Under the pieces are notes generated by a model. That model saw only the letters and a program-made list of their open reading frames with translations. It ran no database searches and was not told the DNA's origin. Positions 16,223 to 31,416 of a DNA stretch of 57,876 nt are shown one piece after another (the stretch's first letter is position 1; every line of letters begins with the position of its first letter). The position numbers and the translations under genes were made by a program. Source of the stretch: Acidimicrobiia bacterium (GTDB lineage: Bacteria > Actinomycetota > Acidimicrobiia > Spongiisociales > ZC4RG35); assembly GCA_035711995.1 (NCBI GenBank), contig DASTBQ010000085.1:1-57876 (forward strand), in the 5' to 3' direction.

Positions 16223-17467
16223 ATGAATGGGAAAATACAAACACGTCTTGCGCTACTTGTCGGGGTCGCGGCCCTAGCCGCGGTTGTCGTACCGGCAACA
16301 CTTGCCCTCGGATCGCACCAAGGAGGAGAAACGGTTGAGGGCCCTGCCTCATACGTCTTTCTAGAGATGGGAAGGAACGATCGGGTGACCTTCGAGGGTC
16401 AGACGCAGCCGATTACCACACGCAACAACAACTGCACGGTGGTCACATTGGGTAGTCCGGAACTCCTGGTGCTCACCCCATTTGGGGGTGTCCTCGGTCA
16501 CACCAAGGATGCGTTAGGTGTGCAGAGCACCGGTGACGGAAGTGGCGAGCCATGCTCACGTGTCGATTCCGGCAAGAGTGAGGCGATCTCGGTCAGCCTT
16601 GGCTCAGCGATGGCCGGCTCAGTCATGACTGCTGTCGATGTCGATCTCGAACTGAAGAGCAACGCCACAGTTCAAGTGAGTTATCTCCACGAAGGTGTCC
16701 AGGTGGCTACGCATATGTTCAACCCGACCGATGCCTCTGACGATGGTCCCGATTCAGGTGATGGTGACAACTATCGCTACGCCCATCGGCCGATGAGTGG
16801 TGGCGAGCAGGTCTATTTCGACGAGGTGAAGTTCACACCGATCACGGGCATCCTCTCTTTGGAGGGTGGCTCTGACGGCACCGACGCCGGCAGTCTGGTC
16901 ACGACCAACAACTTCAGCCAGTTCGAGGTCATGCAGGGGTTCGATGGCGAGATCACGTGTGGCGACGAGGAGCCCATCGGGGCCGGGGGAACCACTTCCG
17001 GAGTCGTAACCATGCACTCCGAAGACAAGGGTGAAGGCTGGCTGCTCGATCCCAATTGCGATCTCAAGCCATATAACGCTTGGACCACGTCGGACTCGCT
17101 GGCCTTCGTGCCCGAGCTCGAGGGGACGACGGCTCGGTACACCATCGCGGTCACCGTGAAAGACCAGGCGATCGTGGTCGAGCCCGACGGCACCATCAGT
17201 TCGCTGATAGCCGTCTACGACCCGGCGCCGGCGCTGGCCTTCCCTGACGTGTCTGCCGACCTGCCACTTCCAGCCTGCGAAGGCACTCCGGAGCTGGTCC
17301 CGGGGGCGGCCTCTGACGCCTTTTGGACACAGGCAGACGTAGGTCTTCTCCCCGACGGGGCGACCGCGTGCTGGTATCACGCCTCGGTGGAGCCAACCGG
17401 CGAAGGTGAGGGAACCGAAATCTGGGGCATCTACTTCGAGGACGACCCCGGGTTCGGATTCAAGTAG
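16223..17467 (+). CDS. secreted protein of unknown function
   Basis: The ATG at 16223 gives a signal-peptide-like N-terminus, MNGKIQTRLALLVGVAALAAVVVPATLALGSHQ. I recognise no family motif. The product is Gly/Asp/Thr-rich. Confidence 0.6.
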   Translation: MNGKIQTRLALLVGVAALAAVVVPATLALGSHQGGETVEGPASYVFLEMGRNDRVTFEGQTQPITTRNNNCTVVTLGSPELLVLTPFGGVLGHTKDALGVQSTGDGSGEPCSRVDSGKSEAISVSLGSAMAGSVMTAVDVDLELKSNATVQVSYLHEGVQVATHMFNPTDASDDGPDSGDGDNYRYAHRPMSGGEQVYFDEVKFTPITGILSLEGGSDGTDAGSLVTTNNFSQFEVMQGFDGEITCGDEEPIGAGGTTSGVVTMHSEDKGEGWLLDPNCDLKPYNAWTTSDSLAFVPELEGTTARYTIAVTVKDQAIVVEPDGTISSLIAVYDPAPALAFPDVSADLPLPACEGTPELVPGAASDAFWTQADVGLLPDGATACWYHASVEPTGEGEGTEIWGIYFEDDPGFGFK

Positions 17468-20400
17468 CAGCGACTTGATCCTCGATGCCGAGCGTGGCGC
17501 GTTCGGCATCGAGGATCTCTTGCAGCGAGGAATCGACTTCGCCCATTGAGATGAGCGCCTCGGCCAGCTGAACTACGTCGAATTTGTTCCCGCTGTCCGT
17601 GACTTGTTGCAAGGCCTCCGTCACCGTTTCACGCGCCTTTTCTCGATCGCCAAGCCCGTCCCAGCGCACAGCGGAAGCGATGGCAAGTCGTGCCCTGAAT
17701 TCCCCTGTATCGGTTGATCCGGGCTGTTGGATCGCGTCAAGCAGGTCCTTGGCTCTCTCGAATTGACCGTCTCTAGCCAGCGCGTCTACGAGGGTCACCC
17801 GGCTTTCCAGGGACCATGCCGAGTCTGGCTGCGACTCGAGCGAACCTTCGAGACGTTCTATCGCGTCACTAAAGCGACTCTCTCCTGTGAAAAGACGTGC
17901 CCACTGCAGGTCGACGAGGGGCATGTAGTGACGTGCGTTAGACGCCCGATAGGTCCGCTCCGCTTCTCCGAGGGGTGAGCGAGCTTCGGAATACCGTCGT
18001 TGGCTGATCAGTATTTCCGCAATGTTTGCCCGGATGAGTGCAGCATAAAAAACGTCGCCCGATCTCTCCGCGGCGTTCAGACTCTGCTCATACCAATCGA
18101 TGGCCTGGTCCCATTGGTCTTCTAGGTAAGCGAACGCCCCCATATTGTTCATGATCACCGCCGCCCTCGAGATCGATCCGAGGCTCGTGTAGATCTCGAT
18201 CGCCTCCTCTCCATGACGTGGTTCGTCGACGCCCAACATGAAGTTCGACCAATCGAGAACGCCGTATGCTCGGGCGATGGCCTCACGCTCGTCGTAGTCT
18301 TGCCCCAGCGCAATCGCTTCTCGAGCGCAAGCGGCGGCGTGATGGGGCTCGCCGTCGGCAGCATGGACACTGGCTTCATACGCAATCAATCGGGCCAGGC
18401 TCGCTCCCTCTCGTGCTGAAAATGGAGAAGGCCCGACTGCTTTTCGGCCAAGAGTCAGGTTCCGTTTCGCCTGCGACAAGTTTCCCGTTCCCATCCAGGT
18501 CTCGGCTTGCTTCAGATAGATCTCAGCTATCCGTTCCGGATTGCCGTTCCCGGCATTGATCGCACGTCGGAACGCTTTTCGAGCTTCCTCATAGTCGCCA
18601 ATCATGTCGTGAACCTCGCCAAGGCTGGCCCAGGTGTCGGCAACAGATGCTGCGCTGACCCCGGGGAGATGCCTTGCCGATTCGAGCGCACGTTCGTAAT
18701 GAACGACAGCTTCGGAGTTCGAAAAGGCTGCTTGTGACTTGGCGGCAGCGATCCGGGAGTATTCCCATGCCTTTTCGTGCCGTCCTGCTTCGGAGAAGTG
18801 GTAGGCGAGGAACTCAGCCGAAGCCGCTGGATCGTGGCCCGACATTCGCTCGACGACCTCACCGGCCCTGCCGTGGAGTTCCCTGCGACGCCGATACGGA
18901 AGTCCCTGATAAGCGACGTCATGGACAACGGCATGCTTGAAGCGGAGCCGCGTATTGCCATCAGCCTCGATGAAACGTTCCAATGTCGTTCGGGTTGCCT
19001 CGTCGATCTCGATGGCATCGGGGGCCAAGAATTCGTCGAGCACCAATGTCGGGAAGCTGTTGCCCAAGACCGACGAGTAGCGGAGGGTTTGCCGCGCCAG
19101 GGGAGGGAGGGAGTCGATCTGGGTCGAAACGACGGCGTCGAGCGAGTCTGGAATATTCTCTGCGCTCCCGGTCTCGCGTATGACACCGATGATCTCAGAG
19201 AGAAATAGGGGATTACCACCGGCCCGATTCACGATGTTGTCGAGCTGATACGGTCGCAACGGCGCTGCGGATGTCGCCTCGATCGTGATCTGACGCATCG
19301 TTTGATCGTCGAGTGGAGCCAGGGCTATCCCATCACCAAACGAATTCACGTCGAGGCCCTCCAGATCACGCGTCGTTGCTATGACAGTCCAGGGCCGCGT
19401 CTCGGCGGCCGACCCGATGCGGAGCAGCAGGTTCCGGGACGCCTCGTCGAGCCATTGAGCATCATCAGCAACCACGGCGAACGGCTCATTGTGGAGTTCC
19501 GATAGCAGGTCGACTATTGCGGCCGCAGTCCGCTCGGGCCGAAAGCGCGGGTCGATGGCAGCTGTGGTCTCGTTGTCAGCGATATCGATGTGAAGCACGT
19601 CACCTAGCAGCGGAATCAGCGGGCGGAGGTCTGGGGCCGCCTTTCTGATTGCCGCGCTCAACCGACGAGTCATCGTTTTCGCGTCGCCACGCTCTATGCC
19701 GAGCTCACGTCGCAGAGGGTCGCGAAAGGCCCAATAAGCGTTGTCAGACCCGTTGGGCTCCGCCTTGATGGTAAGCGTCGCCAGACCGGGGCATCTTTCG
19801 ATCACTTCGGCGATCAGGCGGGTCTTTCCGATTCCGGTGTCACCCGCGATGGTCATCATCCCGCCTCGTCCGACCCGGGCACAGGTGGTGACGATGGAAA
19901 CGAGCATCTCCAACTCGGCCTCCCGACCATGGAACGGAAGTTCATGTTTGGTCTCTGGAGGACGCACCCCGATCTCCTCGAACACCTCGTAGGCAAGAAC
20001 CGGCTGCTCCTTGCCCTTGACGTGGAACGGCTCCAGTGCTTCGGTATGGAAGAGGCTCGAAGCTGCGTCGAGCACGCCGGGACTCGAGTACAACGACCCG
20101 GGTGGGGCCGCAGCCATGAGCCGTGCTGCGAGATTGACCGTGTCCCCCATCACCGTGAAAGTTCTGCGAAAATCAGTGCCGACATCGCCGGCGAACACAT
20201 GCCCCCGGTTCACCCCGACCTGAACTGACAGGTCGAGGTCGCTGTCGAGGATGGAACGGGCGGCGCGGAGAACGCTTCCCTCGTCGTCATGCTTGCTGGC
20301 GGGAACACCCCCGGCAATGATGACCTTTCCTCCGTCAGAATCGATGTCGGTGGCCAAGAAGGTGATCTCTTCTGCATCGACTGACCGCTGAATCGCACTG

Positions 20401-21230
20401 ATCAGTTGATGAAGCGCCGCTGCAACTGCATCCGACCCATGGGCTGCGAGCATGCCGTCGACGCCCTTGAACTTGACGAAACCAATCGTTGCTAGGCGGT
20501 GCTCGGAGTCGGAGATTCCGTAGGTGAGGTGGTCGCGGAGTTGACCTGGCACGAATGAGGATAGATCCGGGTCCTGACCTTGGTCCCTTGTCACGGGGCC
20601 GCATACGGGATGGTCGATCTTGTGTTTCTTCAGCAGCACGCCAGACCCCTTTGGCTCTCCGAAGAACGCGGCGGGCAATCGTTCCGCCACACTCCGGCTG
20701 ACCAGAATCTCCCCGGCTTCAGCCGTGGACTCCATCTCTGTTGTGTGAGATGCGACCGGCCCGGTCACGAGCAGCTCTCTATGCGACTCTCCCACCAAGA
20801 AGAAGTCGACCGGGCCGGTGTGGATACCCGAAGACATTTTCAGGTCGATACGGCCCACCGACGTTTTCTCCCTGGAGGCTTCTCTGAGGGCGGCTCTCAT
20901 TTCGACAGTCGCTGCAGTCGCCTGCCAGACATGGTCCTCGGTGTCGAAGAGCAGCAGAAGTGCGTCTCCTCCGAACTTGATCAGAGAGCCACCGCGGCTG
21001 AAGACGATCTCGAGCATCGCGCCGAAGACACGATTGAGAACCGCAGTCAATTCCTCCGCACCGATCCGGCCCCGTCGAGCCAGTCGTTCCGACAGGTTGG
21101 TGAAGCCTGATATGTCGACGAAAACCAGGGTGCCCTCGACGGCACGCCACAAAGAACCGGACGCGTGACGGTCCCACTCCGATGCCACTCTGGGCACATA
21201 TGGATCGAGCCCGCTCGCCCGATCAGCCAC
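17460..21230 (-). CDS. class III nucleotide cyclase (tandem cyclase-homology domains) fused to P-loop STAND-like NTPase and TPR array
   Basis: CHD1 has LVFVDISGFT and FGGDALLLLF. CHD2 has GVNRGHVFAGDVG and MGDTVNLAARL. Walker A is IAGDTGIGKTRL and Walker B is FAVVADDAQWLDE. The C-terminal 450 aa or so are TPR-like. The GTG start has AGGAGG 6 nt upstream. Confidence 0.9.
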   Translation of the reverse strand: MADRASGLDPYVPRVASEWDRHASGSLWRAVEGTLVFVDISGFTNLSERLARRGRIGAEELTAVLNRVFGAMLEIVFSRGGSLIKFGGDALLLLFDTEDHVWQATAATVEMRAALREASREKTSVGRIDLKMSSGIHTGPVDFFLVGESHRELLVTGPVASHTTEMESTAEAGEILVSRSVAERLPAAFFGEPKGSGVLLKKHKIDHPVCGPVTRDQGQDPDLSSFVPGQLRDHLTYGISDSEHRLATIGFVKFKGVDGMLAAHGSDAVAAALHQLISAIQRSVDAEEITFLATDIDSDGGKVIIAGGVPASKHDDEGSVLRAARSILDSDLDLSVQVGVNRGHVFAGDVGTDFRRTFTVMGDTVNLAARLMAAAPPGSLYSSPGVLDAASSLFHTEALEPFHVKGKEQPVLAYEVFEEIGVRPPETKHELPFHGREAELEMLVSIVTTCARVGRGGMMTIAGDTGIGKTRLIAEVIERCPGLATLTIKAEPNGSDNAYWAFRDPLRRELGIERGDAKTMTRRLSAAIRKAAPDLRPLIPLLGDVLHIDIADNETTAAIDPRFRPERTAAAIVDLLSELHNEPFAVVADDAQWLDEASRNLLLRIGSAAETRPWTVIATTRDLEGLDVNSFGDGIALAPLDDQTMRQITIEATSAAPLRPYQLDNIVNRAGGNPLFLSEIIGVIRETGSAENIPDSLDAVVSTQIDSLPPLARQTLRYSSVLGNSFPTLVLDEFLAPDAIEIDEATRTTLERFIEADGNTRLRFKHAVVHDVAYQGLPYRRRRELHGRAGEVVERMSGHDPAASAEFLAYHFSEAGRHEKAWEYSRIAAAKSQAAFSNSEAVVHYERALESARHLPGVSAASVADTWASLGEVHDMIGDYEEARKAFRRAINAGNGNPERIAEIYLKQAETWMGTGNLSQAKRNLTLGRKAVGPSPFSAREGASLARLIAYEASVHAADGEPHHAAACAREAIALGQDYDEREAIARAYGVLDWSNFMLGVDEPRHGEEAIEIYTSLGSISRAAVIMNNMGAFAYLEDQWDQAIDWYEQSLNAAERSGDVFYAALIRANIAEILISQRRYSEARSPLGEAERTYRASNARHYMPLVDLQWARLFTGESRFSDAIERLEGSLESQPDSAWSLESRVTLVDALARDGQFERAKDLLDAIQQPGSTDTGEFRARLAIASAVRWDGLGDREKARETVTEALQQVTDSGNKFDVVQLAEALISMGEVDSSLQEILDAERATLGIEDQVAAT
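17477..17517 (+). terminator. perfect 15-bp stem / 11-nt loop hairpin 10 nt after the stop of the secreted-protein gene
   Basis: gatcctcgatgccga (17477-17491) and tcggcatcgaggatc (17503-17517) are exact reverse complements. There is no clear U-tract. The hairpin lies inside the last codons of the convergent cyclase gene. Confidence 0.4.
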
Positions 21231-21236
21231 GCTCTA

Positions 21237-21242
21237 CCTCCT
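21237..21242 (-). promoter_or_regulatory. Shine-Dalgarno AGGAGG for the 1256-aa cyclase
   Basis: The plus strand reads cctcct at 21237-21242, 6 nt from the GTG at 21230. Confidence 0.5.
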
Positions 21243-21279
21243 GATCAGGGCTTCCCAGGGTAGACGGAAACAAGAAGAC

Positions 21280-23439: not shown

Positions 23440-26400
23440 CCAGGACCCAAGGCATAGACGAAGCCGTCCCCGCCTGCCACGAACACCACGCCGTTGGCTA
23501 CCGCAGGGGCGGCGCGCACGTGTAGATCGGTCTCCCACGTCCACAACGTCTCGCCCGACGTCGCATCCACTGCGCGGACCACGCCGTCTTCCGACGCGAC
23601 ATACACGACGTCAGCTGCCACGACGGGCGGACTCGATATCGGACTATCCGCAGTCACCTGACTTGCCGGCCACTGGTGCTCGTTGCTGGGAAGGTGGATC
23701 GAGTAGAGATAACGACCAGCTGGTAGGTACATCGTGTCACCGATGATGGCCGGGGGGACACGAACGGGGGTGTCTGCCACGTAGAACGGGAGGCGATTGG
23801 GGACGATCCCGGAGCAGGCGCCGACCGGAAGGGCCCAGATGTTCTGTCCAGTAGTACCGACGTACACGGCTTCGTCGGTGATGATCGGAGAGGTGACGAT
23901 GGGGGCCAGGGCGTCGAACTCACAGACAGGCGTGGGGATGTCCGAGCTGACGTCGATGAGGTGCAAAATGCTCGACTCGCTGCCCACGTACAGGATGCCG
24001 GAATGGAATGACAGATCGGCAGAGATCGGGCCCAACCCTTCGCCCTCGGCGGGAAACCGCCAGATCTCATCACCGCTGATCAGGTCGAGTCCATATACGA
24101 AGCCATCGTTGGTGGCCACGAACACTCGACCGTTGTCGACGACTGGAGAGGATCGGATTCGTTCACCCAATTGTGTGGACCATTGCACCCCGTTGGCCAC
24201 TGCGGCGTCCTGACCGCGAACCACTCCGTTGTCATCGACGACCACCAGCATCATGGGAGATTGGTTTTCCTCCATCTCACCCTGGCCCAAACCCGGCGCC
24301 GCCGCGATTCGCCCGTCAGGCGGCATCGTCCATATCTCCGAACCTGTGGTCTGATCCAAGTTGTAGAAGGTCCCTTCGGTGGTTCCGACGTAAACGCTCG
24401 AACCAAATGTGATCGGTCCTGCCTCGATGGGTCCCGCGGTCTCGAACCGCCAGTAATACCCGTCCACTTCACGTGGCCCGACCGCATCGACCAGACCGGT
24501 CCGTTCATAACTGCCCCGATAAACGCTGGTTCCGAAGAAGATGTCCACGTCGGCGGGGATCGCGATTTGGGTTTCTTCGAGCGATGATGGGGCGGCTGTG
24601 ACGCTGGGAACCGAACCCTCCTCGACTGAGATGGAGTTTTCAGTGGCGGTGGAGCCGCCAGTGACTTGGGAGACGGCCCAGGCGGTTCCGGCGGCCAGTG
24701 CGACGACGCCAAGCCCCGCAGCGATCGCCAACAGCCCCCGGCGTCGGCGTGACGGTCGTCTTTGTATCACCAGTCCCGACGAGCGCCGCTGCGCCGGACT
24801 GAGGGGCGAGTCAGCCGACAATCCGGCTGCAGCCAGGGAGGCCGACATCGCCCGGACAGCCGCCTCACGGTCAGGATCCTCCACCGGAGTGGGCATATCG
24901 AGAGCGGCGCGGATGTGCGGTTGTTTAGACCAATCTTCACGCCAGTCATGGGGAACACGCTTGTCGATCGCATGGATTGCAAGGATCACCGAAGCCGCTT
25001 CGCCACTGTCCCACTTGCCCGCGGCGTGTACGGCTCGCGCCGCCATGATGGGCTGCCCGGCATACAGGGCGATCGATATCGCGTCGGAGGCGGCAGAGTC
25101 AGCGCCGCCTCGCTCAGTGAGAGCGCACAGGGTCTCCGCAGCCCACCCGTACAGCTTTGCTTGGAGCAGTTGGTCGGCCAGGTCCTCCAGGTCTATGTCC
25201 GACCAGGTTTCTCCTGCCAGAGCCTGGGCCTCGATCGTCAGTGCGAGGCATCGCGTGCGCCAACGCCAACCGTCTGCACCCGGTGGCGTTGTCTCGAACG
25301 CGGCTGCAAGGTCTGCTCGTGCCAGCCCAACGTCGCCCGCTGCGAGATGAACTCGAGCGCGGGTTACCAAAGCCATGTTCTCCCAGGCGGGCAATTGACG
25401 CGTGACTAGGTCGAGGGCGCGCTCGGCCGCCTGGAGTGCCTCAGTGGTTCGACCGTAGAGCGTCGCACCCTCGGCCACGGCCAGATCGGTGAGGAAGAGT
25501 GGGGCCTCTACTCCCGTCTCGGCGGCCAAGGTCTCCGCAGTCGCGATCGCTTCCAGGCCTTCGTCTGGATGCCCGGACGGGAATAGCGACCGCGCTCTCC
25601 ATGCCTCCTTGTCCGCCAGGGAGTCTCTACCTTCGATGCGTTCGGCGTGGTCTCTGAGTCTGTTGAATTCCTTCTCTGCCCAGCTCATCTCGCCGCGATC
25701 GAAATGAACCCAGGCCCTGTTGAGCCCAACGGTGAAGTCCGCCGACTCGGCCCCAGATCTGGTCGCGATGCCCTCCGCCTTGGTCAGGGTGGCGTCGGCC
25801 TCTGCGGGAAAGCCCAGTCGGCTGAGAGTCCGCGCCTGAAATGCCAGCATCCGCGCCAGCTCGGATGGCGGCCCGTCGAACGCAGAGAGCTCCGCCATAG
25901 CGATCAGGTACTCAGCACGTTGCGGTTGCTGTGAGTCGTCGGCAATCGCGGCTGCGAGGTACAAAGCCTCGGAAAGCTGGTCGGGCGTGCACAGTTCGAC
26001 GGCACGCTCGGCGTGTGCCCGAGCTGCATCGGTGCGCCCCGCCGAGCGCAAGAACCTCGCACTGATGAGGTGCAGGGAGGCCAGGTCGCCCGGATCCCCG
26101 GCGTGACCGATCTCAGCGGCCGAACGCAGGGCGGACTCTGACATGCGGTGGGCCTCAGAGTTTGCTTGCGATGCCGCCGCACTTCGTGCCGCCTCGAGGA
26201 GAAGGGGAAATGCCAGGCCAGGTTGCCCCGCTTCGACACGGAGCTGGCCGAGACGTCCTGGACCGGTCGTGTTGGGATCCAAAGCATCTGCGAGACGCGC
26301 GGCGACATTCCCGACCCTTGCCTCTTGCACGGCAATGGCCCGGGTGCCGGCTGCCGTTGAAGAGAATCCACCCCGCCCCTGCTGGATGAGACCTTCACCG

Positions 26401-27035
26401 ACGAGGAATTCCCCCAAACGAAGTATCTCCTCCTCGGACCGTCCTGCCGCCCTCGCCGCCACACTCACCGGCAACCACCCGGTCGTAAGGCTGCATGCGG
26501 CGAGCAGATCGAGACTCTCGGGTGGTAGATGGGTGATGTCGACATCTGGGATGGCTTCGGAGGTTTTCAGTCTCTCGATACGAACCGAACCATCGAGTCG
26601 AGCGACCAGATCATCCGGATCCCAGGTGGCGTCTGCCGTGTTGGTGCGGAAAGCGAGGACCACTACCGATCCGGGTCCTTCAGACTTCATGATTCGCTCG
26701 AGACGCCCCAGCGAAGTGGCGTCTGCAGACTGAGCTTCCTCGATCACAATGGTCCGTGACGAGCTCGACTCCAGGTCCAAGACATCGGCGAGACGGCCGG
26801 GCTCACCGCCGCAGGATGACGCACAGACGACACGAGTGACAGCATTCGACAGCCCGGTCAGATCACTGCCCAACGTGCCATCGACACTCTCGAGGAGAAT
26901 GACTGTCGACCTGCCCTCGCCTCTGGCAGCGTTTCCATCCTCGATCAGATCCTGCACCAACGCGACGACACCGTCCGAATTCGACTTGCCCATTCGTCCC
27001 ACTTCTCCCGTGTCCCGGATGCGGAAAGGTATCAC
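23436..27035 (-). CDS. membrane protein: degenerate STAND-like NTPase + TPR (cytoplasmic), one TM helix, PQQ-like beta-propeller (extracytoplasmic)
   Basis: The N-terminus aligns by eye with the NTPase of the neighbouring cyclases but lacks GxxGxGK[ST] (VILLESVDGTLGSD). The Walker-B-like stretch is TIVIEEAQSAD. A long helical TPR-like region follows. RRRRGLLAIAAGLGVVALAAGTAWAV is a TM segment (about 24672-24737). The C-terminal 400 aa or so have repeated ..V(Y/F)V(G/A)..DG.(V/L)YA(L/V)D..(S/T)G...W motifs, as in BamB/PQQ propellers. Confidence 0.8.
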   Translation of the reverse strand: MIPFRIRDTGEVGRMGKSNSDGVVALVQDLIEDGNAARGEGRSTVILLESVDGTLGSDLTGLSNAVTRVVCASSCGGEPGRLADVLDLESSSSRTIVIEEAQSADATSLGRLERIMKSEGPGSVVVLAFRTNTADATWDPDDLVARLDGSVRIERLKTSEAIPDVDITHLPPESLDLLAACSLTTGWLPVSVAARAAGRSEEEILRLGEFLVGEGLIQQGRGGFSSTAAGTRAIAVQEARVGNVAARLADALDPNTTGPGRLGQLRVEAGQPGLAFPLLLEAARSAAASQANSEAHRMSESALRSAAEIGHAGDPGDLASLHLISARFLRSAGRTDAARAHAERAVELCTPDQLSEALYLAAAIADDSQQPQRAEYLIAMAELSAFDGPPSELARMLAFQARTLSRLGFPAEADATLTKAEGIATRSGAESADFTVGLNRAWVHFDRGEMSWAEKEFNRLRDHAERIEGRDSLADKEAWRARSLFPSGHPDEGLEAIATAETLAAETGVEAPLFLTDLAVAEGATLYGRTTEALQAAERALDLVTRQLPAWENMALVTRARVHLAAGDVGLARADLAAAFETTPPGADGWRWRTRCLALTIEAQALAGETWSDIDLEDLADQLLQAKLYGWAAETLCALTERGGADSAASDAISIALYAGQPIMAARAVHAAGKWDSGEAASVILAIHAIDKRVPHDWREDWSKQPHIRAALDMPTPVEDPDREAAVRAMSASLAAAGLSADSPLSPAQRRSSGLVIQRRPSRRRRGLLAIAAGLGVVALAAGTAWAVSQVTGGSTATENSISVEEGSVPSVTAAPSSLEETQIAIPADVDIFFGTSVYRGSYERTGLVDAVGPREVDGYYWRFETAGPIEAGPITFGSSVYVGTTEGTFYNLDQTTGSEIWTMPPDGRIAAAPGLGQGEMEENQSPMMLVVVDDNGVVRGQDAAVANGVQWSTQLGERIRSSPVVDNGRVFVATNDGFVYGLDLISGDEIWRFPAEGEGLGPISADLSFHSGILYVGSESSILHLIDVSSDIPTPVCEFDALAPIVTSPIITDEAVYVGTTGQNIWALPVGACSGIVPNRLPFYVADTPVRVPPAIIGDTMYLPAGRYLYSIHLPSNEHQWPASQVTADSPISSPPVVAADVVYVASEDGVVRAVDATSGETLWTWETDLHVRAAPAVANGVVFVAGGDGFVYALGPG

Positions 27036-27124
27036 GGGAGCATTCCGAGCGATGGTGAAACCACTTCAAACGAGGTGCCAATACCGACGGGTGACGACCG
27101 GCGGACACTTAGAGTCCTGGTGCA

Positions 27125-29740
27125 ATGGACGAACGGCGAGAACAGCTCGGGCTCCCCACTGGTGTCTTGACCTTCATGTTCACCGACATCGAGGGTTCGA
27201 CCCGGACATTGCAACAAATCGGGGACGTGGCGTTCGCCGAACTGATCAGACAGCATCATGAGGTGATCCGCGCTGCCCTCGAACACGGTGGTGGCATCGA
27301 GATCTCGACCGAGGGCGATTCCTTCTTCGCCGTCTTCCGAGACGTGATGGGCGCAGTTGACACTGCGGCTCGCATCCAGATCGCACTTGAGGAGCAGTCA
27401 GCTCACTGGTCGGCTCCCGTCAAGGTCAGGCTCGGTCTCCACACCGGAATGGGGATGCTGGGAGGGGACAACTATGTCGGGGTCGACGTACACAAGGCGA
27501 GCCGAGTTGCCTCTGCGGCGCATGGCGGCGAGGTGCTCCTCTCGGACGAGGTCGGCCAAGTCGTGCGGGCGATCCGTGGCGATGACGCCACGCTGAACCT
27601 GGGGAGATACAAGCTCGCCGGTTTCGCAGAGGCCGAGATGCTGCATCGCCTCTTGGCTCCCGGGCTCCCTTCAGCGTTCCCACCTCCGCGGGCGCGGCAC
27701 GCCGATTCGCGTCTCCCTGCACCCGCAACCGAATTCGTCGGACGTGAGGAAGAGATCGTCGAGGGGGTCGAGACCATCAGGACGGCGCGGCTCGTGACAC
27801 TCACCGGTCCGGGTGGAACCGGCAAGACTCGTCTCGCCATCGAGATCGCGAGACGTCTCGAGTTGGAGATACCCGATGGGGCGGCTTTCGTCTCGCTGGC
27901 GAGCCTCAACGACGCCGATCTGGTGATCGGTGCCATCCTCGAGGCCCTCGAGCTGCAGATTGCCGGAGGCGTGGATCCGACAGAGCGTCTGACGCGTTAC
28001 TTGTCTGAGCGTCGGGTGCTCCTCGTCCTCGACAATCTCGAGCAACTCCACGACGTCGGTGGGGTTGTGTCGCGACTCCTCGAAGCTGCACCCGGACTCA
28101 AGATATTGGCCACTTCGCGCGTTCCCCTTCGTCTCGGAGCCGAACGTGAGATTCAGGTGCCACCGCTCGAGGTGCCAAAGGACGGTGCTCCTCAAGAGGC
28201 AATTGCGCAAATGGCAGGGGTCCGTCTGTTCATGGCCCGTGCTGCGGCCGTGCGTCCCGGTTTTGAACTGACCCCCGAGAACATAACTGCCGTCGCTGGA
28301 ATCGCCAGGTCTGTCGACGGCCTTCCCCTCGCCATAGAGCTCGCTGCATCCCGAATGAGGTCGCTCACGCCCGAGATCATCCTGGAACGGCTGGGGAACC
28401 AGCTCCTGGCGGCGCCGTCGTCCGACCTGCCTGCGCGGCAGCAAACGATCGTCAACGCCATCGGATGGAGCTATGACCTTCTCACTCCCAGGGTACGAAT
28501 GGTTTTCGAGGAGCTCTCGGTCTTCAGCGGGTCTTTTGGACTTACTGAGGCCGAGGTGGTGTGTGGGCAGCAGGACGATGTGCTGGACTGCCTCATCGAT
28601 CTCGTGGAGCAGAGTCTGCTTCGTCAGTCCGAAACCAGCGGAGACCCACGTTTCCGGATGCTCACCGTCATCCGGGATTTCGGCTACGCCGCCCTGGTGG
28701 CGCGAGGCGACGAAGCCGAGGTGGCGGCGCGCCATTCCCAGGTCTATTCGGACATGGCTCAACGGGCAGGGCAGGAGATCCTGACTTCCCGGCAGCTGGT
28801 ATGGCTCAGGGGATTGGGCAACGATCACGACAACCTGCGTGCAGCGTTCGATCGTGCTCTGGCAGGTGACGATCAGGACACCGCTCTCACGATCGCCGGA
28901 TCGTTGTGGAGGTTCTGGCAGATCACCGGTCGTCTCGATGAGGCTGAGGATCGTCTCCGAGCTGCCCTCGGGGAGTCGGGGGGTGGGGATCCGCGAAAGA
29001 GGGCGCGAGCGCTGACGGGTCTCGGTGGGATCCTGTACTGGAAAGGTCTCTGGAGCGACACGATCGAGCCATACCGCGAAGCTCTGGAAATCCACCTCGC
29101 CATGAGCGATCAAGTGGGCACCGCAGAGGCTCTGTACAACCTGAGTTTCCCCCGGGGCTACACCGGCGACTACGAGGAGGCCGAGCGTCTCCTTCGCGAG
29201 TCGCTCGAGTTGAGCGAGGAGATCGGATGGACACTCGGCATAGGCCGTGCCTACTGGGCTCTGGCGAACATCGCTTCATACTCCCAGCAATGGGAGCTCT
29301 CGCTCCAATATGCCAACAGGGCCGTCGACATCTTCTCTGAGCTCGACGCTCCGTTCGACCTCGGCTGGGCTTGGTACATGGTGGCCCACGCATACATCAG
29401 ATCGAAGAAACCGGAGATGGCTCGGGATGCCCTGGCGGCGAGCCTGGAGATCTTCACCCGCGTCAGGGATGTTTCAGCACTCGCGCTGATCCTGGAAACT
29501 GTGTCCTATGTAGCTCTCGTGCTGGAGGACTCCGACGCCGTCTATTTCGCGGGCGTAGCGCAGAGGCTCAAGCAAGACACCGGAGTGCAGATCGGGGATG
29601 TCGAGGTGATCAGCTTTCCCGAGATCCGGGAACATCTCGTCGACATGACCGACGCCGCGCAGGGACGGTACGACACCGGTTTCCACGCCAACCTGGAAGA
29701 CGCCATCGAGAAAGCCCGGGCCGTTCTCGCTGTGGACTGA
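27125..29740 (+). CDS. class III nucleotide cyclase fused to NB-ARC/STAND-like NTPase and TPR array
   Basis: The CHD has LTFMFTDIEGST, TEGDSFFAVF and RLGLHTG. Walker A is LTGPGGTGKTRLA and Walker B is LLVLDNLEQL. The C-terminus has TPR-like repeats. The gene is divergent from the patatin operon. Confidence 0.9.
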   Translation: MDERREQLGLPTGVLTFMFTDIEGSTRTLQQIGDVAFAELIRQHHEVIRAALEHGGGIEISTEGDSFFAVFRDVMGAVDTAARIQIALEEQSAHWSAPVKVRLGLHTGMGMLGGDNYVGVDVHKASRVASAAHGGEVLLSDEVGQVVRAIRGDDATLNLGRYKLAGFAEAEMLHRLLAPGLPSAFPPPRARHADSRLPAPATEFVGREEEIVEGVETIRTARLVTLTGPGGTGKTRLAIEIARRLELEIPDGAAFVSLASLNDADLVIGAILEALELQIAGGVDPTERLTRYLSERRVLLVLDNLEQLHDVGGVVSRLLEAAPGLKILATSRVPLRLGAEREIQVPPLEVPKDGAPQEAIAQMAGVRLFMARAAAVRPGFELTPENITAVAGIARSVDGLPLAIELAASRMRSLTPEIILERLGNQLLAAPSSDLPARQQTIVNAIGWSYDLLTPRVRMVFEELSVFSGSFGLTEAEVVCGQQDDVLDCLIDLVEQSLLRQSETSGDPRFRMLTVIRDFGYAALVARGDEAEVAARHSQVYSDMAQRAGQEILTSRQLVWLRGLGNDHDNLRAAFDRALAGDDQDTALTIAGSLWRFWQITGRLDEAEDRLRAALGESGGGDPRKRARALTGLGGILYWKGLWSDTIEPYREALEIHLAMSDQVGTAEALYNLSFPRGYTGDYEEAERLLRESLELSEEIGWTLGIGRAYWALANIASYSQQWELSLQYANRAVDIFSELDAPFDLGWAWYMVAHAYIRSKKPEMARDALAASLEIFTRVRDVSALALILETVSYVALVLEDSDAVYFAGVAQRLKQDTGVQIGDVEVISFPEIREHLVDMTDAAQGRYDTGFHANLEDAIEKARAVLAVD

Positions 29741-29774
29741 AGTTGTCCCCCTCAACCGGTAGCCTGTTCCTCTC

Positions 29775-29849
29775 GGGCCCGTAGCTCAATCAGGTCAGAG
29801 CAGCGGACTCATAATCCGTCGGTTGCAGGTTCAAATCCTGCCGGGCCCA
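29775..29849 (+). tRNA. tRNA-Met (CAT anticodon; a lysidine-modified tRNA-Ile2 cannot be excluded from sequence alone)
   Basis: It folds as a cloverleaf. The acceptor is gggcccg/cgggccc, the D arm gctc..gagc, the anticodon stem-loop gcgga-ctCATaa-tccgt and the T arm gcagg-ttcaaat-cctgc. CCA is not encoded. It lacks the initiator features (no 1:72 mismatch, no GGG/CCC anticodon stem). Confidence 0.9.
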
Positions 29850-29997
29850 CAGTACTAATCGATGAACCGGGTCTGTTTCAACGTCGAGACTATGTGCAAC
29901 CGGACGGTAGCTCTAGGTCACTTTTAGTGACGCTGGGTAACGGACAGATGGCCGAATGCTTAGGGAGCGATAACGAGACTCACGATGAGCGTGATGT

Positions 29998-30456
29998 TCA
30001 GAGACCCACCATGTCCACGCCATAGGTGGCTTGTTCTCGAGTGAATCCTTCAAACAGCAATTGGTCGATCAGTCCGGAACGAGAGAAGCCCATGAAGTCG
30101 ATGTATTCCTGTGCCTTCTTCCAGGCTTGTTCGTTCCAGTCGACATTGAGGTAGTCCACGGCCTTCGTGGCCTCCGCGTTGGTAAATCCCTCGTATTCCA
30201 ACTGGTCGATGAGTCCCTCGCGGGAGAAGGAAATGAAGTCCAAGTAATCCCTGGCCGATTCGATGGCGTTCTCCTCGGACAGTGTGAATTGGGGAGGAGG
30301 CTCAGTCGTCGTGGTCGCCTGGGTCGTCGTTGTCGTAGGCGGCGTCATCACGGCCAGGCGAGGGAGTTCAGATCCATCGGCGCAGGTGCTCTCCAGCGCT
30401 TTCGATTGACCCCAGTCGCCTACGATTGGGGCATCCGTCAATTGGGATGGCGGCAA
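29998..30456 (-). CDS. Ltp-family repeat protein (phage-type surface lipoprotein family), apparently lacking its signal/lipobox N-terminus
   Basis: There are two internal repeats, AIESARDYLDFISFSREGLIDQLEYEGFTNAEATKAV and AWKKAQEYIDFMGFSRSGLIDQLLFEGFTREQATYGV, preceded by a Thr/Pro linker. No hydrophobic leader follows the TTG start, so this may be a 5'-truncated remnant. Confidence 0.6.
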   Translation of the reverse strand: MPPSQLTDAPIVGDWGQSKALESTCADGSELPRLAVMTPPTTTTTQATTTTEPPPQFTLSEENAIESARDYLDFISFSREGLIDQLEYEGFTNAEATKAVDYLNVDWNEQAWKKAQEYIDFMGFSRSGLIDQLLFEGFTREQATYGVDMVGL

Positions 30457-30470
30457 ACGGAGGTCGGGTC

Positions 30471-30971
30471 ATGAGGCGTACGGCTTTAGTGCTCGCCGTT
30501 GTGGCATTGTTGATGATGGTGACGGCAGCACCGGTGTGGGCGGGCAAGCCGGAGGTGTTCCCCCCGGAACCGGTTGACGAAGAAGGCGTCTTGGAGTCCA
30601 CTTTGTGCGGCTTCGAGGTGGGATTTCACCTTGAAGGTAAAGAAGGTGGAATCTTCTTTGAGGACCGGGCCATCCTCACCGCCCCCGGCGGAAAAGTGAA
30701 ACTGACCAACCTCGCCACTGGAGCGATGGTCTCGCTGAAAATCGCGGGCAGCTTTCACGACAACGTACTCGACGACGACGGCAACATTCGGACCGTCAAC
30801 GTCGGAAGAAACCTTCTCTTCGGCATCTTTGATGGTGAGCCGGGCCTGTTCCTCACCATCGGCAAAGTCGTGACCGACTGGAACATCAATGATCTTCCCG
30901 ACAACATCTTCGAGGTCATCGAGTCGGAGAGCCCCGGGAAGCTGATCGACGTTTGCGGCATGCTGTCCTGA
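30471..30971 (+). CDS. small secreted protein, unknown function
   Basis: The ATG at 30471 has GGAGG 8 nt upstream. The signal peptide reads MRRTALVLAVVALLMMVTAAPVWA/GK. No family is recognised. Confidence 0.55.
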   Translation: MRRTALVLAVVALLMMVTAAPVWAGKPEVFPPEPVDEEGVLESTLCGFEVGFHLEGKEGGIFFEDRAILTAPGGKVKLTNLATGAMVSLKIAGSFHDNVLDDDGNIRTVNVGRNLLFGIFDGEPGLFLTIGKVVTDWNINDLPDNIFEVIESESPGKLIDVCGMLS

Positions 30972-31416
30972 CAGCTTCGGAAGTCAAGCCGACGGAGAGT
31001 TGACCCTCCTCCAAGCGGGAGGCACTCGTGGCCGAGACCATGAGACGGGCCATCACTCAGGCTCATTGGGTCAAACCGCCTTTCATGGCCGGAGGCCCCG
31101 ATTGAGTTCGGATGGATGGATGCGAGAAAGGAGGGAGTCGAGGTTGCGATCCCCAGTTCGTGGAGCAGCCGATCTCTGTTCCTTGACGGTTGCTCGAAAT
31201 CGGTAAGACAGCCAAGCCAACATGACAGACACTGTGAGCGCCACAGCTGGGTGCAAGAATCCCGAGGTCCCGCGCCCTCGACTGGCTGGGCTGGCGGAGG
31301 AGCAGTTCCAGGGGGAGAGAGAATGGCCCATCTTGGTAAGGCTTCGCCTTTGGCCGGGCAACAAGCGCAACCAGTCAGTTGTGCTCTTATCACCCCAGGT
31401 CAGCGCTCGATAGAAG

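What the first reader, a model, noticed from the sequence alone, without database searches (positions are those of the whole stretch)
17460..29740. Candidate undescribed system: STAND-type nucleotide cyclases + cNMP-gated patatin phospholipase + membrane beta-propeller pseudo-NTPase
Seen in sequence: a minus-strand operon runs 27035 to 17460. It encodes (A) a 1199-aa membrane protein with a degenerate NTPase-TPR cytoplasmic part and an extracytoplasmic PQQ-like propeller. (B) is start/stop-coupled to A (ATGA at 23436-23439). It is a 719-aa protein with two cyclic-nucleotide-binding domains and a complete patatin catalytic set (GGGxRG, GTSIG, DGG). After a 49-nt spacer with AGGAGG comes (C), a 1256-aa tandem-CHD cyclase fused to a P-loop NTPase and a TPR array. 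Transcribed divergently 89 nt away is (D), an 871-aa CHD + NB-ARC-like NTPase + TPR protein. Established knowledge: CBASS uses nucleotide second messengers to switch on patatin phospholipases (CapV). Pycsar pairs class III-like cyclases with CNB-domain effectors. Avs and other STAND defence proteins are NTPase + TPR sensors with N-terminal effector domains. Inference: here the STAND effector domain would be a cyclase whose product gates a membrane-degrading phospholipase, with the propeller protein as a possible envelope-side sensor or scaffold. I am not aware of this combination being described as a unit. The module abuts a tRNA-Met with an integration scar, a typical accessory-DNA hotspot. 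Alternative: housekeeping cAMP-controlled lipid remodelling. From memory, mycobacteria encode CHD-ATPase cyclases (Rv0386 type) and CNB-NTE esterases (Rv2565 type), though not known to be linked.
Basis: partly seen in the sequence, partly recalled or inferred. Interest (0 to 1): 0.8.

Follow-up and report, generated by a model that had tools for sequence, protein, structure and literature searches.

The report
Cyclic-nucleotide cyclases beside an NTE-type lipase
This stretch of an uncultured Acidimicrobiia chromosome holds two sensor-linked cyclic-nucleotide cyclases, a cyclic-nucleotide-binding lipase of the neuropathy-target-esterase type and a rare membrane sensor-like protein, and it looks like an ordinary, though undescribed, second-messenger signalling cluster rather than a four-gene anti-phage system.

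Summary

- Intact four-gene set: found only in this window. The nearest relative (L003, A 81% identical) has lost 1.6 kb of B.
- A (pseudo-STAND, TM helix, 8-bladed BamB-like propeller): has no adjacent cyclase or B in about 20 of 29 loci.
- B, C and D: recur together in three arrangements at the same chromosomal site, without A in L013 and in L113-L115.
- B's wider family (NTE-type CNB-CNB-NTE_Ploop-patatin): has a class III cyclase immediately upstream in 7 of 80 genomes from several phyla. Those cyclases carry MASE2 or STAND modules, or none. Its commonest other neighbours are further cNMP-binding proteins.
- C: resembles full-length mammalian soluble adenylyl cyclase (tandem CHD plus STAND P-loop plus TPR).
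- D: its cyclase domain is closest to mycobacterial Ma1120 and LipJ (Rv1900c); its CHD + NB-ARC + TPR layout recalls Rv0386.
- Context: core chromosome, no GC anomaly, no PADLOC system. The B family is absent from phages and small plasmids.

Best reading: a physiological cAMP/cNMP cluster in which the cyclases control an NTE-type lipase, with A as an optional envelope-side accessory. A defence role is not excluded (about 0.15).

The parts
17460..21230 (-). Gene C: sAC-like cyclase, 1256 aa. Tandem class III cyclase domains (CHD1 about res 30-190, CHD2 about 245-420), AAA_16 STAND NTPase (433-612; Walker A GDTGIGKT, Walker B VVADD) and a MalT-like TPR arm (826-1245).
   Evidence: Pfam. Best solved-structure match for both CHDs is human soluble adenylyl cyclase ADCY10 (E 8e-21 single sequence, 3e-35 family profile). 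CHD1 keeps both metal Asp (D39, D89) and the sAC Lys95 equivalent (K85). CHD2 keeps Thr357, Asn366 and Arg370, equivalent to sAC T405, N412 and R416. The C-terminal 450 aa are hypervariable between relatives.
21231..21279 (-). 49-nt B-C spacer with AGGAGG 6 nt upstream of the GTG start of C.
   Evidence: Read directly from the sequence.
21280..23439 (-). Gene B: NTE-family lipase, 719 aa. CNB1 (about res 27-132), CNB2 (161-243), NTE_Ploop-like middle domain (about 290-430) and patatin domain (446-602) with GGGARG, GTSIG and DGG.
   Evidence: Pfam. Homologues 51% and 37% identical to B (P0030, P0092) hit PF24179 NTE_Ploop above threshold. Catalytic motifs are invariant in 23 homologues. The CNB1 phosphate-binding cassette GE...RTAT is canonical. 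CNB2 deviates (GD...RLGR). ATGA start/stop overlap with A.
23436..27035 (-). Gene A: membrane pseudo-STAND/propeller protein, 1199 aa (probably 1185 aa from the ATG at 26993). Cytoplasmic P-loop-less NOD (about res 40-160), winged-helix and TPR solenoid (170-715), Arg-rich juxtamembrane motif LSPAQRRSSGLV, TM helix (766-792), and an extracytoplasmic 8-bladed BamB/PQQ-like propeller (860-1196).
   Evidence: Pfam and NCBIfam. Family alignment. hhalign to C's NOD-TPR, 97.9% probability. AlphaFold model and Foldseek hits to BamB. Remote relatives include AAA_16-TPR-TM-propeller proteins with intact or decaying Walker A, and AfsR-like SARP regulators.
27036..27124 (.). Divergent intergenic region between A and D (89 nt; 131 nt if A starts at 26993).
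   Evidence: Sequence. No sigma-70-like match was found (uninformative). The D|A divergent arrangement is also seen in L003, L008 and L097.
27125..29740 (+). Gene D: CHD + NB-ARC + TPR cyclase, 871 aa. Single CHD (res 15-166), NB-ARC/AAA_22 NTPase (203-451; Walker A GPGGTGKT) and TPR arm (561-820).
   Evidence: Pfam. The CHD best matches Mycobacterium avium Ma1120 and M. tuberculosis LipJ/Rv1900c. Metal Asp D21 and D65 are invariant. Ser61 and Asn116 sit at the substrate-specifying Lys and Asp positions, and His123 at the catalytic Asn position (Asn in the L003 orthologue).
16223..17467 (+). Gene 's': secreted protein of unknown function, convergent with C, with 3' ends overlapping by 8 nt. 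It travels with C in relatives. Membership in the module is uncertain.
   Evidence: Signal peptide read from the translation. No Pfam or PADLOC hit. A convergent secreted-protein gene abuts C in L013, L002, L003 and L113, in three unrelated sequence types.
9961..11313 (-). cNMP_binding + HATPase_c protein, followed by a response-regulator-FAD oxidoreductase gene at 11310..12965(-). A possible further cNMP output 6 kb from C. Not shown to belong to the module.
   Evidence: Pfam. The response-regulator-oxidoreductase gene is syntenic in L003 and L013.
29775..29850 (+). tRNA-Met (CAT), 34 nt after D. Context only.
   Evidence: ARAGORN and Rfam.
31417..31462 (+). 46-nt, 89% copy of the tRNA-Met 3' half. 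With the tRNA it brackets a 1.6-kb remnant (29851-31416) that carries an Ltp-like lipoprotein gene. Context only, on the far side from the module.
   Evidence: the repeat finder family D3. Lipoprotein_Ltp Pfam hit at 29998..30456(-).

Best explanation
This is a chromosomal cyclic-nucleotide (most likely cAMP) signalling cluster of an uncultured Acidimicrobiia bacterium. It is not a fixed four-gene machine.

Proposed mechanism.
1. C and D are class III cyclases held under the control of STAND NTPase-TPR modules. C is built like full-length mammalian soluble adenylyl cyclase. Its CHD1 supplies the two metal-binding Asp. Its CHD2 supplies Thr, Asn and Arg, which would form one pseudo-heterodimeric active site.
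2. D is a single-CHD, NB-ARC-TPR cyclase whose cyclase domain is closest to mycobacterial Ma1120 and LipJ (Rv1900c). It would need to dimerise.
3. Inferred: a ligand bound by the TPR arm, together with nucleotide-dependent NOD oligomerisation, brings or releases the cyclase domains and raises cNMP.
4. Inferred: the cNMP binds the tandem CNB domains of B (CNB1 has a canonical phosphate-binding cassette). This changes the activity or membrane targeting of B's NTE-type patatin (lyso)phospholipase domain and so remodels membrane lipids.
5. Inferred: A is a paralogue of C's NOD-TPR module. It has lost the P-loop and gained a TM helix and an external 8-bladed propeller. It couples an envelope or extracellular cue to the cyclases through NOD/TPR contacts. 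It is an optional accessory.

Shown here: domain make-up, catalytic-motif conservation, translational coupling of A and B, the synteny pattern, and the recurrent cyclase to CNB-patatin adjacency.
Not shown: the product, the direction of regulation, and A's partner.
For: 1. Domains and motifs are as stated.
2. B, C and D co-occur at the same site, between Pirin/cation-efflux genes and PAS/Lactamase_B/LtrA genes, in three arrangements. These are D|A-B-C (window), D|B-C (L013, B 66% identical) and C-D|B (L113-L115, B 59% identical).
3. Across 80 B-family loci from species-representative genomes, 14 carry a class III cyclase within 10 kb.
   - In 7 it is immediately upstream. These are the Bellilinea sAC-like cyclase with a 7-nt gap, three MASE2-CHD (CyaB-like) in Betaproteobacteria, and three Saccharospirillum loci.
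   - With crude gene calls the rate is 5 of 68 at position -1, against 6 of about 1070 elsewhere.
4. The partner cyclases carry MASE2 or STAND modules or none, and response-regulator and HAMP types lie two genes away. The most frequent other neighbours of B-family genes are further cNMP-binding outputs. These are an ABC ATPase-CNB fusion, CNB-SpoIIE, CNB-lipoxygenase, a CRP-type regulator, and here a CNB-HATPase_c protein.
5. C's catalytic pair is closest to human sAC. Full-length sAC has the same C1-C2 plus STAND P-loop layout (PMC12802110).
6. B belongs to the NTE/PNPLA6-7 family. PNPLA7 is a lysophospholipase whose localisation responds to cNMP analogues (PMC5704489).
7. All 10 cyclase genes seen in the 29 distinct A-family loci lie within two genes of A (8 loci, three cyclase types).
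8. A's remote relatives are actinobacterial signal-transduction STANDs, including AfsR-like SARP regulators.
9. The context is core chromosome, with normal GC and no defence hits.
Against: - No biochemical data exist for any of these proteins.
- Only 14 of 80 B-family loci have a cyclase within 10 kb, so most family members are not genetically linked to one.
- The three B-C-D arrangements are descendants of one ancestral locus. They are not independent events.
- CNB2 of this particular B departs from the family's phosphate-binding consensus.
- D has Ser and Asn at the substrate positions and His at the catalytic Asn position, so its activity and product are uncertain.
- Mammalian PNPLA7 activity did not change with cNMP analogues.
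- B was lost by deletion in the closest relative, and A, B, C and D come and go between relatives. That pattern also fits accessory or conflict genes.
- C's TPR arm is hypervariable, as in immune STAND sensors.
Confidence: 0.55

Rival explanations
1. Anti-phage or abortive-infection system. The STAND cyclases sense an invader through their TPR arms and make a cNMP. That cNMP switches on the patatin phospholipase B to destroy the membrane. A acts as an envelope-side co-sensor.
For: - The logic matches Pycsar (cyclase plus CNB effector) and CBASS-CapV (nucleotide-activated patatin). PADLOC gives domain-level hits to PycC, to the CNB part of PycTIR and to CBASS phospholipase effectors.
- A 2026 preprint predicts an 'immune clade 1' of cNMP cyclases fused to STAND NTPases (10.64898/2026.08.12.744502).
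- C's C-terminal TPR arm is hypervariable. Identity to L003 is 89-92% in CHD1 but 18-41% in the last 450 aa.
- The genes show presence/absence variation at one site, and B is pseudogenised in the nearest relative.
- A tRNA gene is adjacent.
Against: - No known defence gene lies in the 58-kb window. The flanks are ThrRS, EF-G, citrate synthase, NAPRTase, trehalose genes, Pirin and AlkZ.
- There is no GC anomaly.
- The tRNA scar brackets DNA on the other side of the tRNA.
- NCBIfam anti-phage and CBASS lipase models score 35 and 30 bits against cut-offs of 400 and 200.
- C's CHDs are closest to sAC, and D's to Ma1120 and LipJ. They are not closest to PycC.
- B-family genes pair with MASE2 cyclases, have response-regulator and HAMP cyclases within two genes, and sit among several other CNB output proteins.
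- The B family is absent from 50,697 phage records. It is found on 13 of 72,556 plasmid records, all 0.66-2.8 Mb replicons.
Confidence: 0.15
2. There is no dedicated unit. These are four independently acting signalling genes of a cyclase- and STAND-rich actinobacterial genome that happen to lie together at a variable chromosomal site. B responds to the global cAMP pool or to none, and A acts on something unrelated to cyclases.
For: - About 20 of 29 A-family loci have no cyclase or B nearby, and 66 of 80 B-family loci have no cyclase within 10 kb.
- The gene content at this site differs in almost every relative.
- A-only (L009), A-C and B-C-D versions all exist.
- B is dispensable in L003.
Against: - A and B are translationally coupled (ATGA), and C follows after 49 nt with its own RBS, so the three are probably one transcript.
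- Cyclases are strongly concentrated at positions -1 to -3 of B-family genes in unrelated phyla.
- All 10 cyclase genes seen in the A-family loci lie within two genes of A, and three different cyclase types are involved.
- A's cytoplasmic part is a paralogue of C's regulatory module.
Confidence: 0.2

Closest known systems
Full-length soluble adenylyl cyclase (sAC, ADCY10) and bacterial sAC-like cyclases
   Same: C has two unlike class III catalytic domains, followed by a STAND P-loop NTPase and a TPR region. This is the layout reported for sACfl (PMC12802110). sAC is the best solved-structure match for both CHDs. C keeps both metal Asp, the Lys95 equivalent, and Thr, Asn and Arg in the second domain.
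   Different: C is bacterial. The sAC bicarbonate-site Arg176 is Thr164 in C. The adenine-contact Lys is shifted by 2-3 residues in this clade. No haem-binding region was looked for. Regulation by bicarbonate or calcium is untested.
Mycobacterial CHD-ATPase cyclases (Rv0386, Rv1358, Rv2488c) and the LipJ (Rv1900c) and Ma1120 cyclase domains
   Same: D is a single CHD plus NB-ARC-type NTPase plus TPR. Its CHD is most similar to Ma1120 and LipJ. It has non-canonical substrate-specifying residues. From my own knowledge, Rv0386 (Gln/Asn) and Rv1900c (Asn/Asp, with His at the Asn position) are similar in this respect.
   Different: No C-terminal LuxR-type HTH was detected in D. D has Ser and Asn at the specificity positions. 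The comparison with Rv0386 itself was not run here.
Neuropathy target esterase family (PNPLA6/PNPLA7; bacterial NTE-family proteins such as Rv2565)
   Same: B has tandem cNMP-binding domains, an NTE_Ploop-like middle domain and a patatin domain with GxSxG and DGG. Sources name its homologues 'NTE family protein/lysophospholipid hydrolase'.
   Different: B has two CNB domains rather than three and no N-terminal TM anchor. It is encoded next to cyclases. Its substrate and cNMP response are unknown.
Pycsar (and the Pucsar offshoot)
   Same: A class III-like cyclase is encoded next to an effector that carries a cNMP-binding domain.
   Different: Pycsar effectors are CNB-TIR or TM proteins. Its cyclases are small, dedicated clades found in defence islands. 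Here the cyclases are large STAND fusions closest to sAC and LipJ, the effector is an NTE-type lipase, and the context is housekeeping.
CBASS with the CapV patatin effector
   Same: A nucleotide second messenger is proposed to control a patatin phospholipase.
   Different: None of the four proteins is a CD-NTase. CapV has no CNB domain. The CBASS lipase model scores 29.6 bits against a cut-off of 200.
AfsK/AfsR-type actinobacterial signalling (PQQ-propeller kinase; SARP-STAND-TPR regulator)
   Same: A's propeller scores against the AfsK model (64 bits, far below its 1300-bit cut-off), and D's TPR against the AfsR model (77 bits, cut-off 1430). An exhaustive search with A's cytoplasmic part retrieves Trans_reg_C+BTAD+AAA_16+TPR (AfsR-like) proteins.
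   Different: A has neither a kinase nor a DNA-binding domain and lacks a P-loop. Propeller and STAND are in one membrane-spanning polypeptide.

Membership tests
STAND NTPases (MalT/AfsR-like, AAA_16 + TPR) | Walker A GxxGxGK[ST] and Walker B hhhhDD/DE in the NOD | tested here: met
   C has GDTGIGKT and VVADD. D has GPGGTGKT and LLVLDN. Pfam AAA_16 and NB-ARC hits are above threshold.
STAND NTPases (protein A) | Intact P-loop in a NOD homologous to STAND, followed by winged helix and repeat arm | tested here: not met
   The NOD-TPR homology is supported (hhalign 97.9%). The Walker A position reads ESxDGxxG in all 11 family members, and Walker B is EE/EN. Remote relatives range from GxxGxGK[ST] through GSGR[ST] to none. 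A is therefore a pseudo-NTPase derivative.
sAC-like (ADCY10-type) adenylyl cyclase | Two complementary CHDs: C1 with two metal Asp; C2 with Lys/Thr specificity pair, Asn and Arg | tested here: met
   C has D39 and D89 in CHD1, and T357, N366 and R370 in CHD2, invariant in 6 relatives. The Lys position is ambiguous: K302 is shifted relative to sAC K334.
sAC-like (ADCY10-type) adenylyl cyclase | Bicarbonate site (sAC Lys95 + Arg176) | tested here: inconclusive
   The Lys95 equivalent (K85) is present. The Arg176 equivalent is Thr164.
sAC-like (ADCY10-type) adenylyl cyclase | C-terminal STAND P-loop module | tested here: met
   AAA_16 and TPR_MalT hits in C. sACfl is described with a predicted STAND domain.
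NTE / PNPLA6-7 family | cNMP-binding domains + NTE_Ploop + patatin with GxSxG Ser and DGA/G Asp | tested here: met
   2x cNMP_binding and Patatin are above threshold. GGGARG, GTSIG and DGG are invariant. NTE_Ploop is above threshold in homologues P0030 (29 bits) and P0092 (34.5 bits, cut-off 27), but was not reported for B itself.
NTE / PNPLA6-7 family | Lysophospholipase activity | not testable with these tools
   Needs an enzyme assay.
Pycsar | Dedicated PycC-clade cyclase | tested here: not met
   PADLOC PycC hits are domain-level only (53.7 and 20.9 bits). The best structural relatives are sAC for C, and Ma1120 and LipJ for D. No cyclase phylogeny was built.
Pycsar | Effector = CNB domain fused to TIR or TM domains | tested here: not met
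   B is CNB-CNB-NTE_Ploop-patatin. The PycTIR hit covers only the CNB part.
Pycsar | cCMP or cUMP product; phage protection | not testable with these tools
   Needs LC-MS and phage assays.
CBASS | CD-NTase (cGAS/DncV-like) signal synthase | tested here: not met
   None of the four proteins has such a hit in Pfam or PADLOC. The ten neighbours scanned against PADLOC gave only CNB-level hits in the CNB-HATPase_c protein, and flanking genes scanned with Pfam gave none. The window was not scanned exhaustively.
CBASS | CapV-type lipase | tested here: not met
   NF041079 CBASS_lipase scores 29.6 bits against a cut-off of 200.
Defence island / mobile accessory DNA | Neighbouring known defence genes, mobility genes, compositional anomaly | tested here: not met
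   The flanks are housekeeping genes. GC is 0.60-0.645 inside the module and 0.59-0.65 outside. The only scar lies beyond the tRNA. The B family is not in phages or small plasmids.

The most novel reading that the evidence does not exclude
The locus is a conflict or programmed-lysis system. STAND-gated cyclases, whose hypervariable TPR arm co-varies with an adjacent hypervariable secreted-protein gene, detect an invader or an envelope insult. A, the transmembrane pseudo-STAND/propeller protein, assists. The cyclases then fire a cNMP that turns an NTE-type patatin lipase against the cell's own membrane. That would be a Pycsar- or CBASS-like logic assembled from sAC-like and NTE-like parts.
Probability: 0.13. 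Interest if true: 0.8.

Novelty: new variant of a known kind. Interest (0 to 1): 0.45.

Why it matters
Two of the proteins are bacterial counterparts of mammalian enzymes whose regulatory halves are still unexplained.
- The function of the STAND P-loop and TPR tail of full-length soluble adenylyl cyclase is unknown. A 2025 study found no regulator specific to it (PMC12802110).
- The cNMP-binding domains of NTE/PNPLA6-7 have no established ligand-dependent effect on activity (PMC5704489).

Genes for the two architectures lie next to each other repeatedly, with a 7-nt gap in Bellilinea. This gives a simple, testable bacterial model: does the cyclase product bind the lipase, and what does the STAND arm sense?

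The A family is a rare membrane-spanning STAND derivative with an external propeller and a P-loop at every stage of decay. I found no description of it. It could show how STAND modules are recruited as non-catalytic partners.

For defence-system discovery the result is cautionary. 'STAND + cyclase + CNB + patatin' looks like immunity by domain logic, but the context here points to ordinary signalling.

Tried and rejected
- A clustering of all neighbours of A-family genes from stop-to-stop ORFs was swamped by shadow ORFs of the GC-rich DNA. It gave no universal partner. I used targeted HMM and phmmer surveys instead.
- The Foldseek search of the full A model returned only propeller matches. The N-terminal homology rests on hhalign and the exhaustive sequence search.
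- The promoter and terminator scan of 16000-30000 found fewer sites than shuffles, so it says nothing about operon limits.
- Literature searches for bacterial CNB-patatin plus cyclase pairs, and for Rv2565, found nothing relevant. The text of the 2004 actinobacterial cyclase survey is not held. Comparisons with Rv0386 and Rv2565 therefore rest on my own knowledge.
- I considered that the tRNA-Met scar marks the module as an island. I rejected this because the repeat brackets 29851-31416, on the 3' side of the tRNA.
- I considered bicarbonate regulation of C. It stays open because only one of the two sAC site residues is kept.
- Two Pfam calls failed on a residue limit and were repeated with fewer proteins.

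Full report
**1. What is there**

The region holds four large ORFs:
- A at 23436..27035(-)
- B at 21280..23439(-)
- C at 17460..21230(-)
- D at 27125..29740(+)

tRNA-Met(CAT) follows at 29775..29850.

- A has weak TPR hits and a PQQ_2/BamB-type propeller.
- B has two cNMP_binding domains and Patatin.
- C has two Guanylate_cyc domains, AAA_16 and TPR_MalT.
- D has Guanylate_cyc, NB-ARC and TPR.

The junction details also hold.
- A's TGA overlaps B's ATG (ATGA).
- The 49-nt B-C spacer carries AGGAGG 6 nt before C's GTG.
- D and A diverge across 89 nt. The gap would be 131 nt if A starts at Met15, as its family alignment suggests.

The window is an uncultured Acidimicrobiia chromosome. Homologues are named Acidimicrobiia. 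The rest of the window encodes ThrRS, EF-G, citrate synthase, NAPRTase, PspC proteins, xanthine dehydrogenase, Pirin and an AlkZ-like glycosylase. GC is flat across the module.

**2. Protein A**

- A profile of 11 A-family proteins aligns to a profile of C-type cyclases with 97.9% probability (E 4.9e-13). A residues 80-589 match C residues 570-1137. The alignment starts exactly at the Walker B strand (IVIEEAQSADATSL against AVVADDAQWLDEAS) and runs through the winged helix into the TPR arm.
- The Walker A position is ESxDGxxG throughout the family.
- The AlphaFold model (pLDDT 79) shows a five-strand alpha/beta domain, a long helical solenoid, a disordered Arg-rich linker with the conserved motif LSPAQRRSSGLV, one TM helix (766-792) and a propeller. 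The propeller superposes on 8-bladed BamB (TMt up to 0.81).
- An exhaustive search of 1.84 billion representatives with the cytoplasmic 770 residues found 108 clusters. Four architectures appear:
  - A-like proteins;
  - shorter forms without the NOD;
  - longer AAA_16-TPR-TM-propeller forms;
  - AfsR-like SARP regulators (Trans_reg_C + BTAD + AAA_16 + TPR).
- In the longer forms the P-loop ranges from intact GxxGxGK[ST], through GSGR[ST], to none.

A is therefore a P-loop-less member of an actinobacterial family of membrane-spanning STAND/propeller proteins. I found no description of that family.

**3. Proteins C and D**

C:
- Its two cyclase domains are most similar to human soluble adenylyl cyclase (E 8e-21; 3e-35 with the family profile).
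- CHD1 keeps both metal Asp (D39, D89) and the sAC Lys95 equivalent.
- CHD2 lacks the metal Asp but keeps Thr357, Asn366 and Arg370, equivalent to sAC T405, N412 and R416. These are invariant in six relatives. This is the pseudo-heterodimer logic of sAC.
- Full-length sAC also has a predicted STAND P-loop domain after C1-C2, and its function is unknown (PMC12802110). C therefore matches sACfl in layout.
- The bicarbonate-site Arg176 is Thr in C, so bicarbonate control is open.

D:
- Its single CHD is closest to M. avium Ma1120 and M. tuberculosis LipJ.
- The metal Asp residues are invariant.
- The substrate positions are Ser61 and Asn116.
- The catalytic Asn position is His123. It is Asn in the L003 orthologue.
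- Its product and activity level cannot be predicted.

Both C and D have intact Walker A and B motifs.

**4. Protein B**

B belongs to a large family found in many phyla. Sources label its members 'NTE family protein/lysophospholipid hydrolase'.
- Homologues 51% and 37% identical to B hit Pfam NTE_Ploop above threshold between the CNB and patatin domains.
- GGGxRG, GxSxG and DGG are invariant.
- CNB1 has a canonical GE...RTAT cassette.
- CNB2 of this protein, and of its L013 orthologue, deviates from the family consensus.
- The tandem CNB pair resembles PKA and PKG regulatory modules, and the patatin part resembles PlpD.

**5. Is the four-gene set conserved?**

No. I examined 29 distinct A-family loci and B's closest relatives. 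The same chromosomal site lies between Pirin/cation-efflux genes and PAS/Lactamase_B/acetyltransferase/LtrA genes. It holds the following:

| Locus | Content |
|---|---|
| window | D\|A-B-C |
| L003 (A 81%, D 89% identical) | D\|A-(B remnant)-C |
| L013 (B 66%) | D\|B-C, no A |
| L113-L115 (B 59%) | C-D\|B, no A |
| L002, L010 | A-C |
| L106 | C\|A |
| L008, L097 | D\|A |
| L001 | MASE7-cyclase then A |
| L009 | A alone |

- In L003 a clean 1.6-kb deletion (window 23099 to 21494) removes CNB2 through the patatin domain and breaks the frame.
- About 20 further loci have A alone, with up to 10 kb of flank free of cyclase or B.
- Sub-modules persist, however. B, C and D occur together three times. 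All 10 cyclase genes seen in the A-family loci lie within two genes of A (8 loci).

**6. Is cyclase to CNB-patatin a real pair?**

Yes, as a recurrent but not obligatory association. I examined 80 B-family loci from species-representative genomes.
- A CHD profile finds a cyclase within 10 kb in 14 of them.
- In 7 the cyclase is immediately upstream:
  - Bellilinea (Chloroflexota) has a sAC-like CHDx2-AAA_16-TPR gene ending 7 nt before the lipase gene;
  - three betaproteobacterial loci have MASE2-CHD (CyaB-like) cyclases 54-69 nt upstream;
  - three Saccharospirillum loci have a divergent stand-alone CHD next to a CRP-type regulator.
- Further STAND cyclases lie 3-4 kb away in L019 and L049. 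Response-regulator-CHD and HAMP-CHD cyclases lie two genes away in L022 and L059.
- With crude gene calls, cyclases make up 5 of 68 genes at position -1, against 6 of about 1070 elsewhere.
- The most frequent other neighbours of B-family genes are additional cNMP-binding proteins: an ABC ATPase-CNB fusion, CNB-SpoIIE, CNB-lipoxygenase and CRP. The window itself has a CNB-HATPase_c gene 6 kb away.

This is the signature of second-messenger regulons with varied environmental inputs and several outputs.

**7. Defence or physiology?**

For defence:
- The domain logic matches.
- A 2026 preprint predicts that STAND-fused cNMP cyclases form an immune clade.
- C's TPR arm is hypervariable. Identity to L003 is 0.89-0.92 in CHD1 and 0.18-0.41 in the last 450 residues.
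- Genes come and go at this site.

Against defence:
- PADLOC finds no system, only domain-level hits.
- NCBIfam anti-phage and CBASS lipase models score far below their cut-offs.
- The flanks are housekeeping genes and GC is normal.
- The tRNA-derived 46-nt repeat at 31417-31462 brackets a 1.6-kb remnant with an Ltp-like lipoprotein gene on the far side of the tRNA.
- The B family is absent from phage records. Among plasmids it occurs only on 13 replicons of 0.66-2.8 Mb.
- The paired cyclases elsewhere carry classical environmental sensor domains.
- A's relatives are AfsR-type regulators.

I put physiological signalling at about 0.55, 'no dedicated unit' at 0.2 and defence at 0.15.

**8. Mechanism proposed (inferred)**

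1. The TPR arms of C and D bind unknown ligands.
2. NOD nucleotide exchange and oligomerisation then position the cyclase domains. C works as an internal C1-C2 pair, and D as a dimer.
3. cAMP, or another cNMP, rises.
4. CNB1 of B binds it and changes the activity or membrane association of the patatin domain. In mammals, PNPLA7 localisation, but not its activity, responds to cNMP analogues (PMC5704489).
5. A is anchored in the membrane with its propeller outside. It modulates C and/or D through its paralogous NOD-TPR surface.

None of these steps has been shown.

**9. Novelty**

- Every domain family is known.
- The CHD-STAND architectures are known from sAC and mycobacteria.
- CNB-patatin is the NTE architecture.
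- I found no description of two things in the searchable literature: the recurrent genetic pairing of class III cyclases with NTE-type CNB-patatin lipases, and the pseudo-STAND-TM-propeller family.

Hence 'new variant of a known kind', with moderate interest.

Noticed in passing
window 16151/16223..17467 (+); L013 8820-10163; L003 10780-11883; L113 1353-2750: A secreted protein of unknown function (clear signal peptide, no Pfam or PADLOC hit) is encoded convergently with C, with 3' ends overlapping by 8 nt. A gene in this position accompanies C in every relative seen, even where C has moved to the other side of D (L113). It comes in at least three unrelated sequence types.
   Followed up: partly
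window 17460..18665 (C residues about 855-1256): The C-terminal TPR arm of C is hypervariable. Against L003, identity is 0.89-0.92 in CHD1 but 0.18-0.41 in the last 450 aa. The nucleotide alignment window vs L003 breaks at 18665 and resumes at 16080. The TPR end and the neighbouring secreted-protein gene therefore differ as one block.
   Followed up: partly
window 29851..31462: A 46-nt, 89% copy of the tRNA-Met 3' half at 31417-31462 brackets, together with the tRNA, a 1.6-kb remnant. The remnant carries a Lipoprotein_Ltp gene (29998..30456, -; Pfam: host cell surface-exposed lipoprotein, a family I recall from a phage superinfection-exclusion protein) and ORFs with no Pfam hit. No integrase gene is left.
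   Followed up: partly
window 9961..12965 (-): A cNMP_binding + HATPase_c protein (9961..11313) is immediately followed by a response-regulator fused to an FAD/pyridine-nucleotide oxidoreductase (11310..12965). This is a second possible cNMP output near the cyclases. The oxidoreductase gene is syntenic in L003 and L013.
   Followed up: no
L003 6405..6973: In the closest relative the B gene is a pseudogene. A single 1.6-kb deletion leaves residues 1-114 and 650-716 in two short ORFs, while A, C and D stay intact.
   Followed up: yes
L014, L015, L019, L050 (near position 10001 of each): In Ilumatobacteraceae and other Acidimicrobiia, the B-family gene is flanked by an ABC-transporter ATPase fused to a C-terminal cNMP_binding domain. 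L016-L018 and L024 fall in the same neighbour cluster but were not annotated. L059 (Gemmatimonas) has a CNB-lipoxygenase fusion directly upstream. L032 (Bellilinea) has a CNB-SpoIIE phosphatase directly downstream.
   Followed up: partly
proteins P0146-P0199 (remote relatives of A): The wider STAND-TM-propeller family shows every stage of P-loop decay. P0154, P0171 and P0175 have GxxGxGK[ST]. Many members have GSGR[ST], with Lys replaced by Arg. Others have no motif.
   Followed up: partly
window 24760..24795 (A residues 745-756): The cytoplasmic juxtamembrane motif LSPAQRRSSGLV is nearly invariant across the A family (S746, P747, Q749, R750 and R751 are invariant). It resembles a basophilic kinase site. 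Its function is unknown.
   Followed up: no
L001 8500..9804: In a distant A-family locus (A 43% identical), the gene directly upstream of A is a MASE7-Guanylate_cyc membrane cyclase. This is a third cyclase type found next to A.
   Followed up: no
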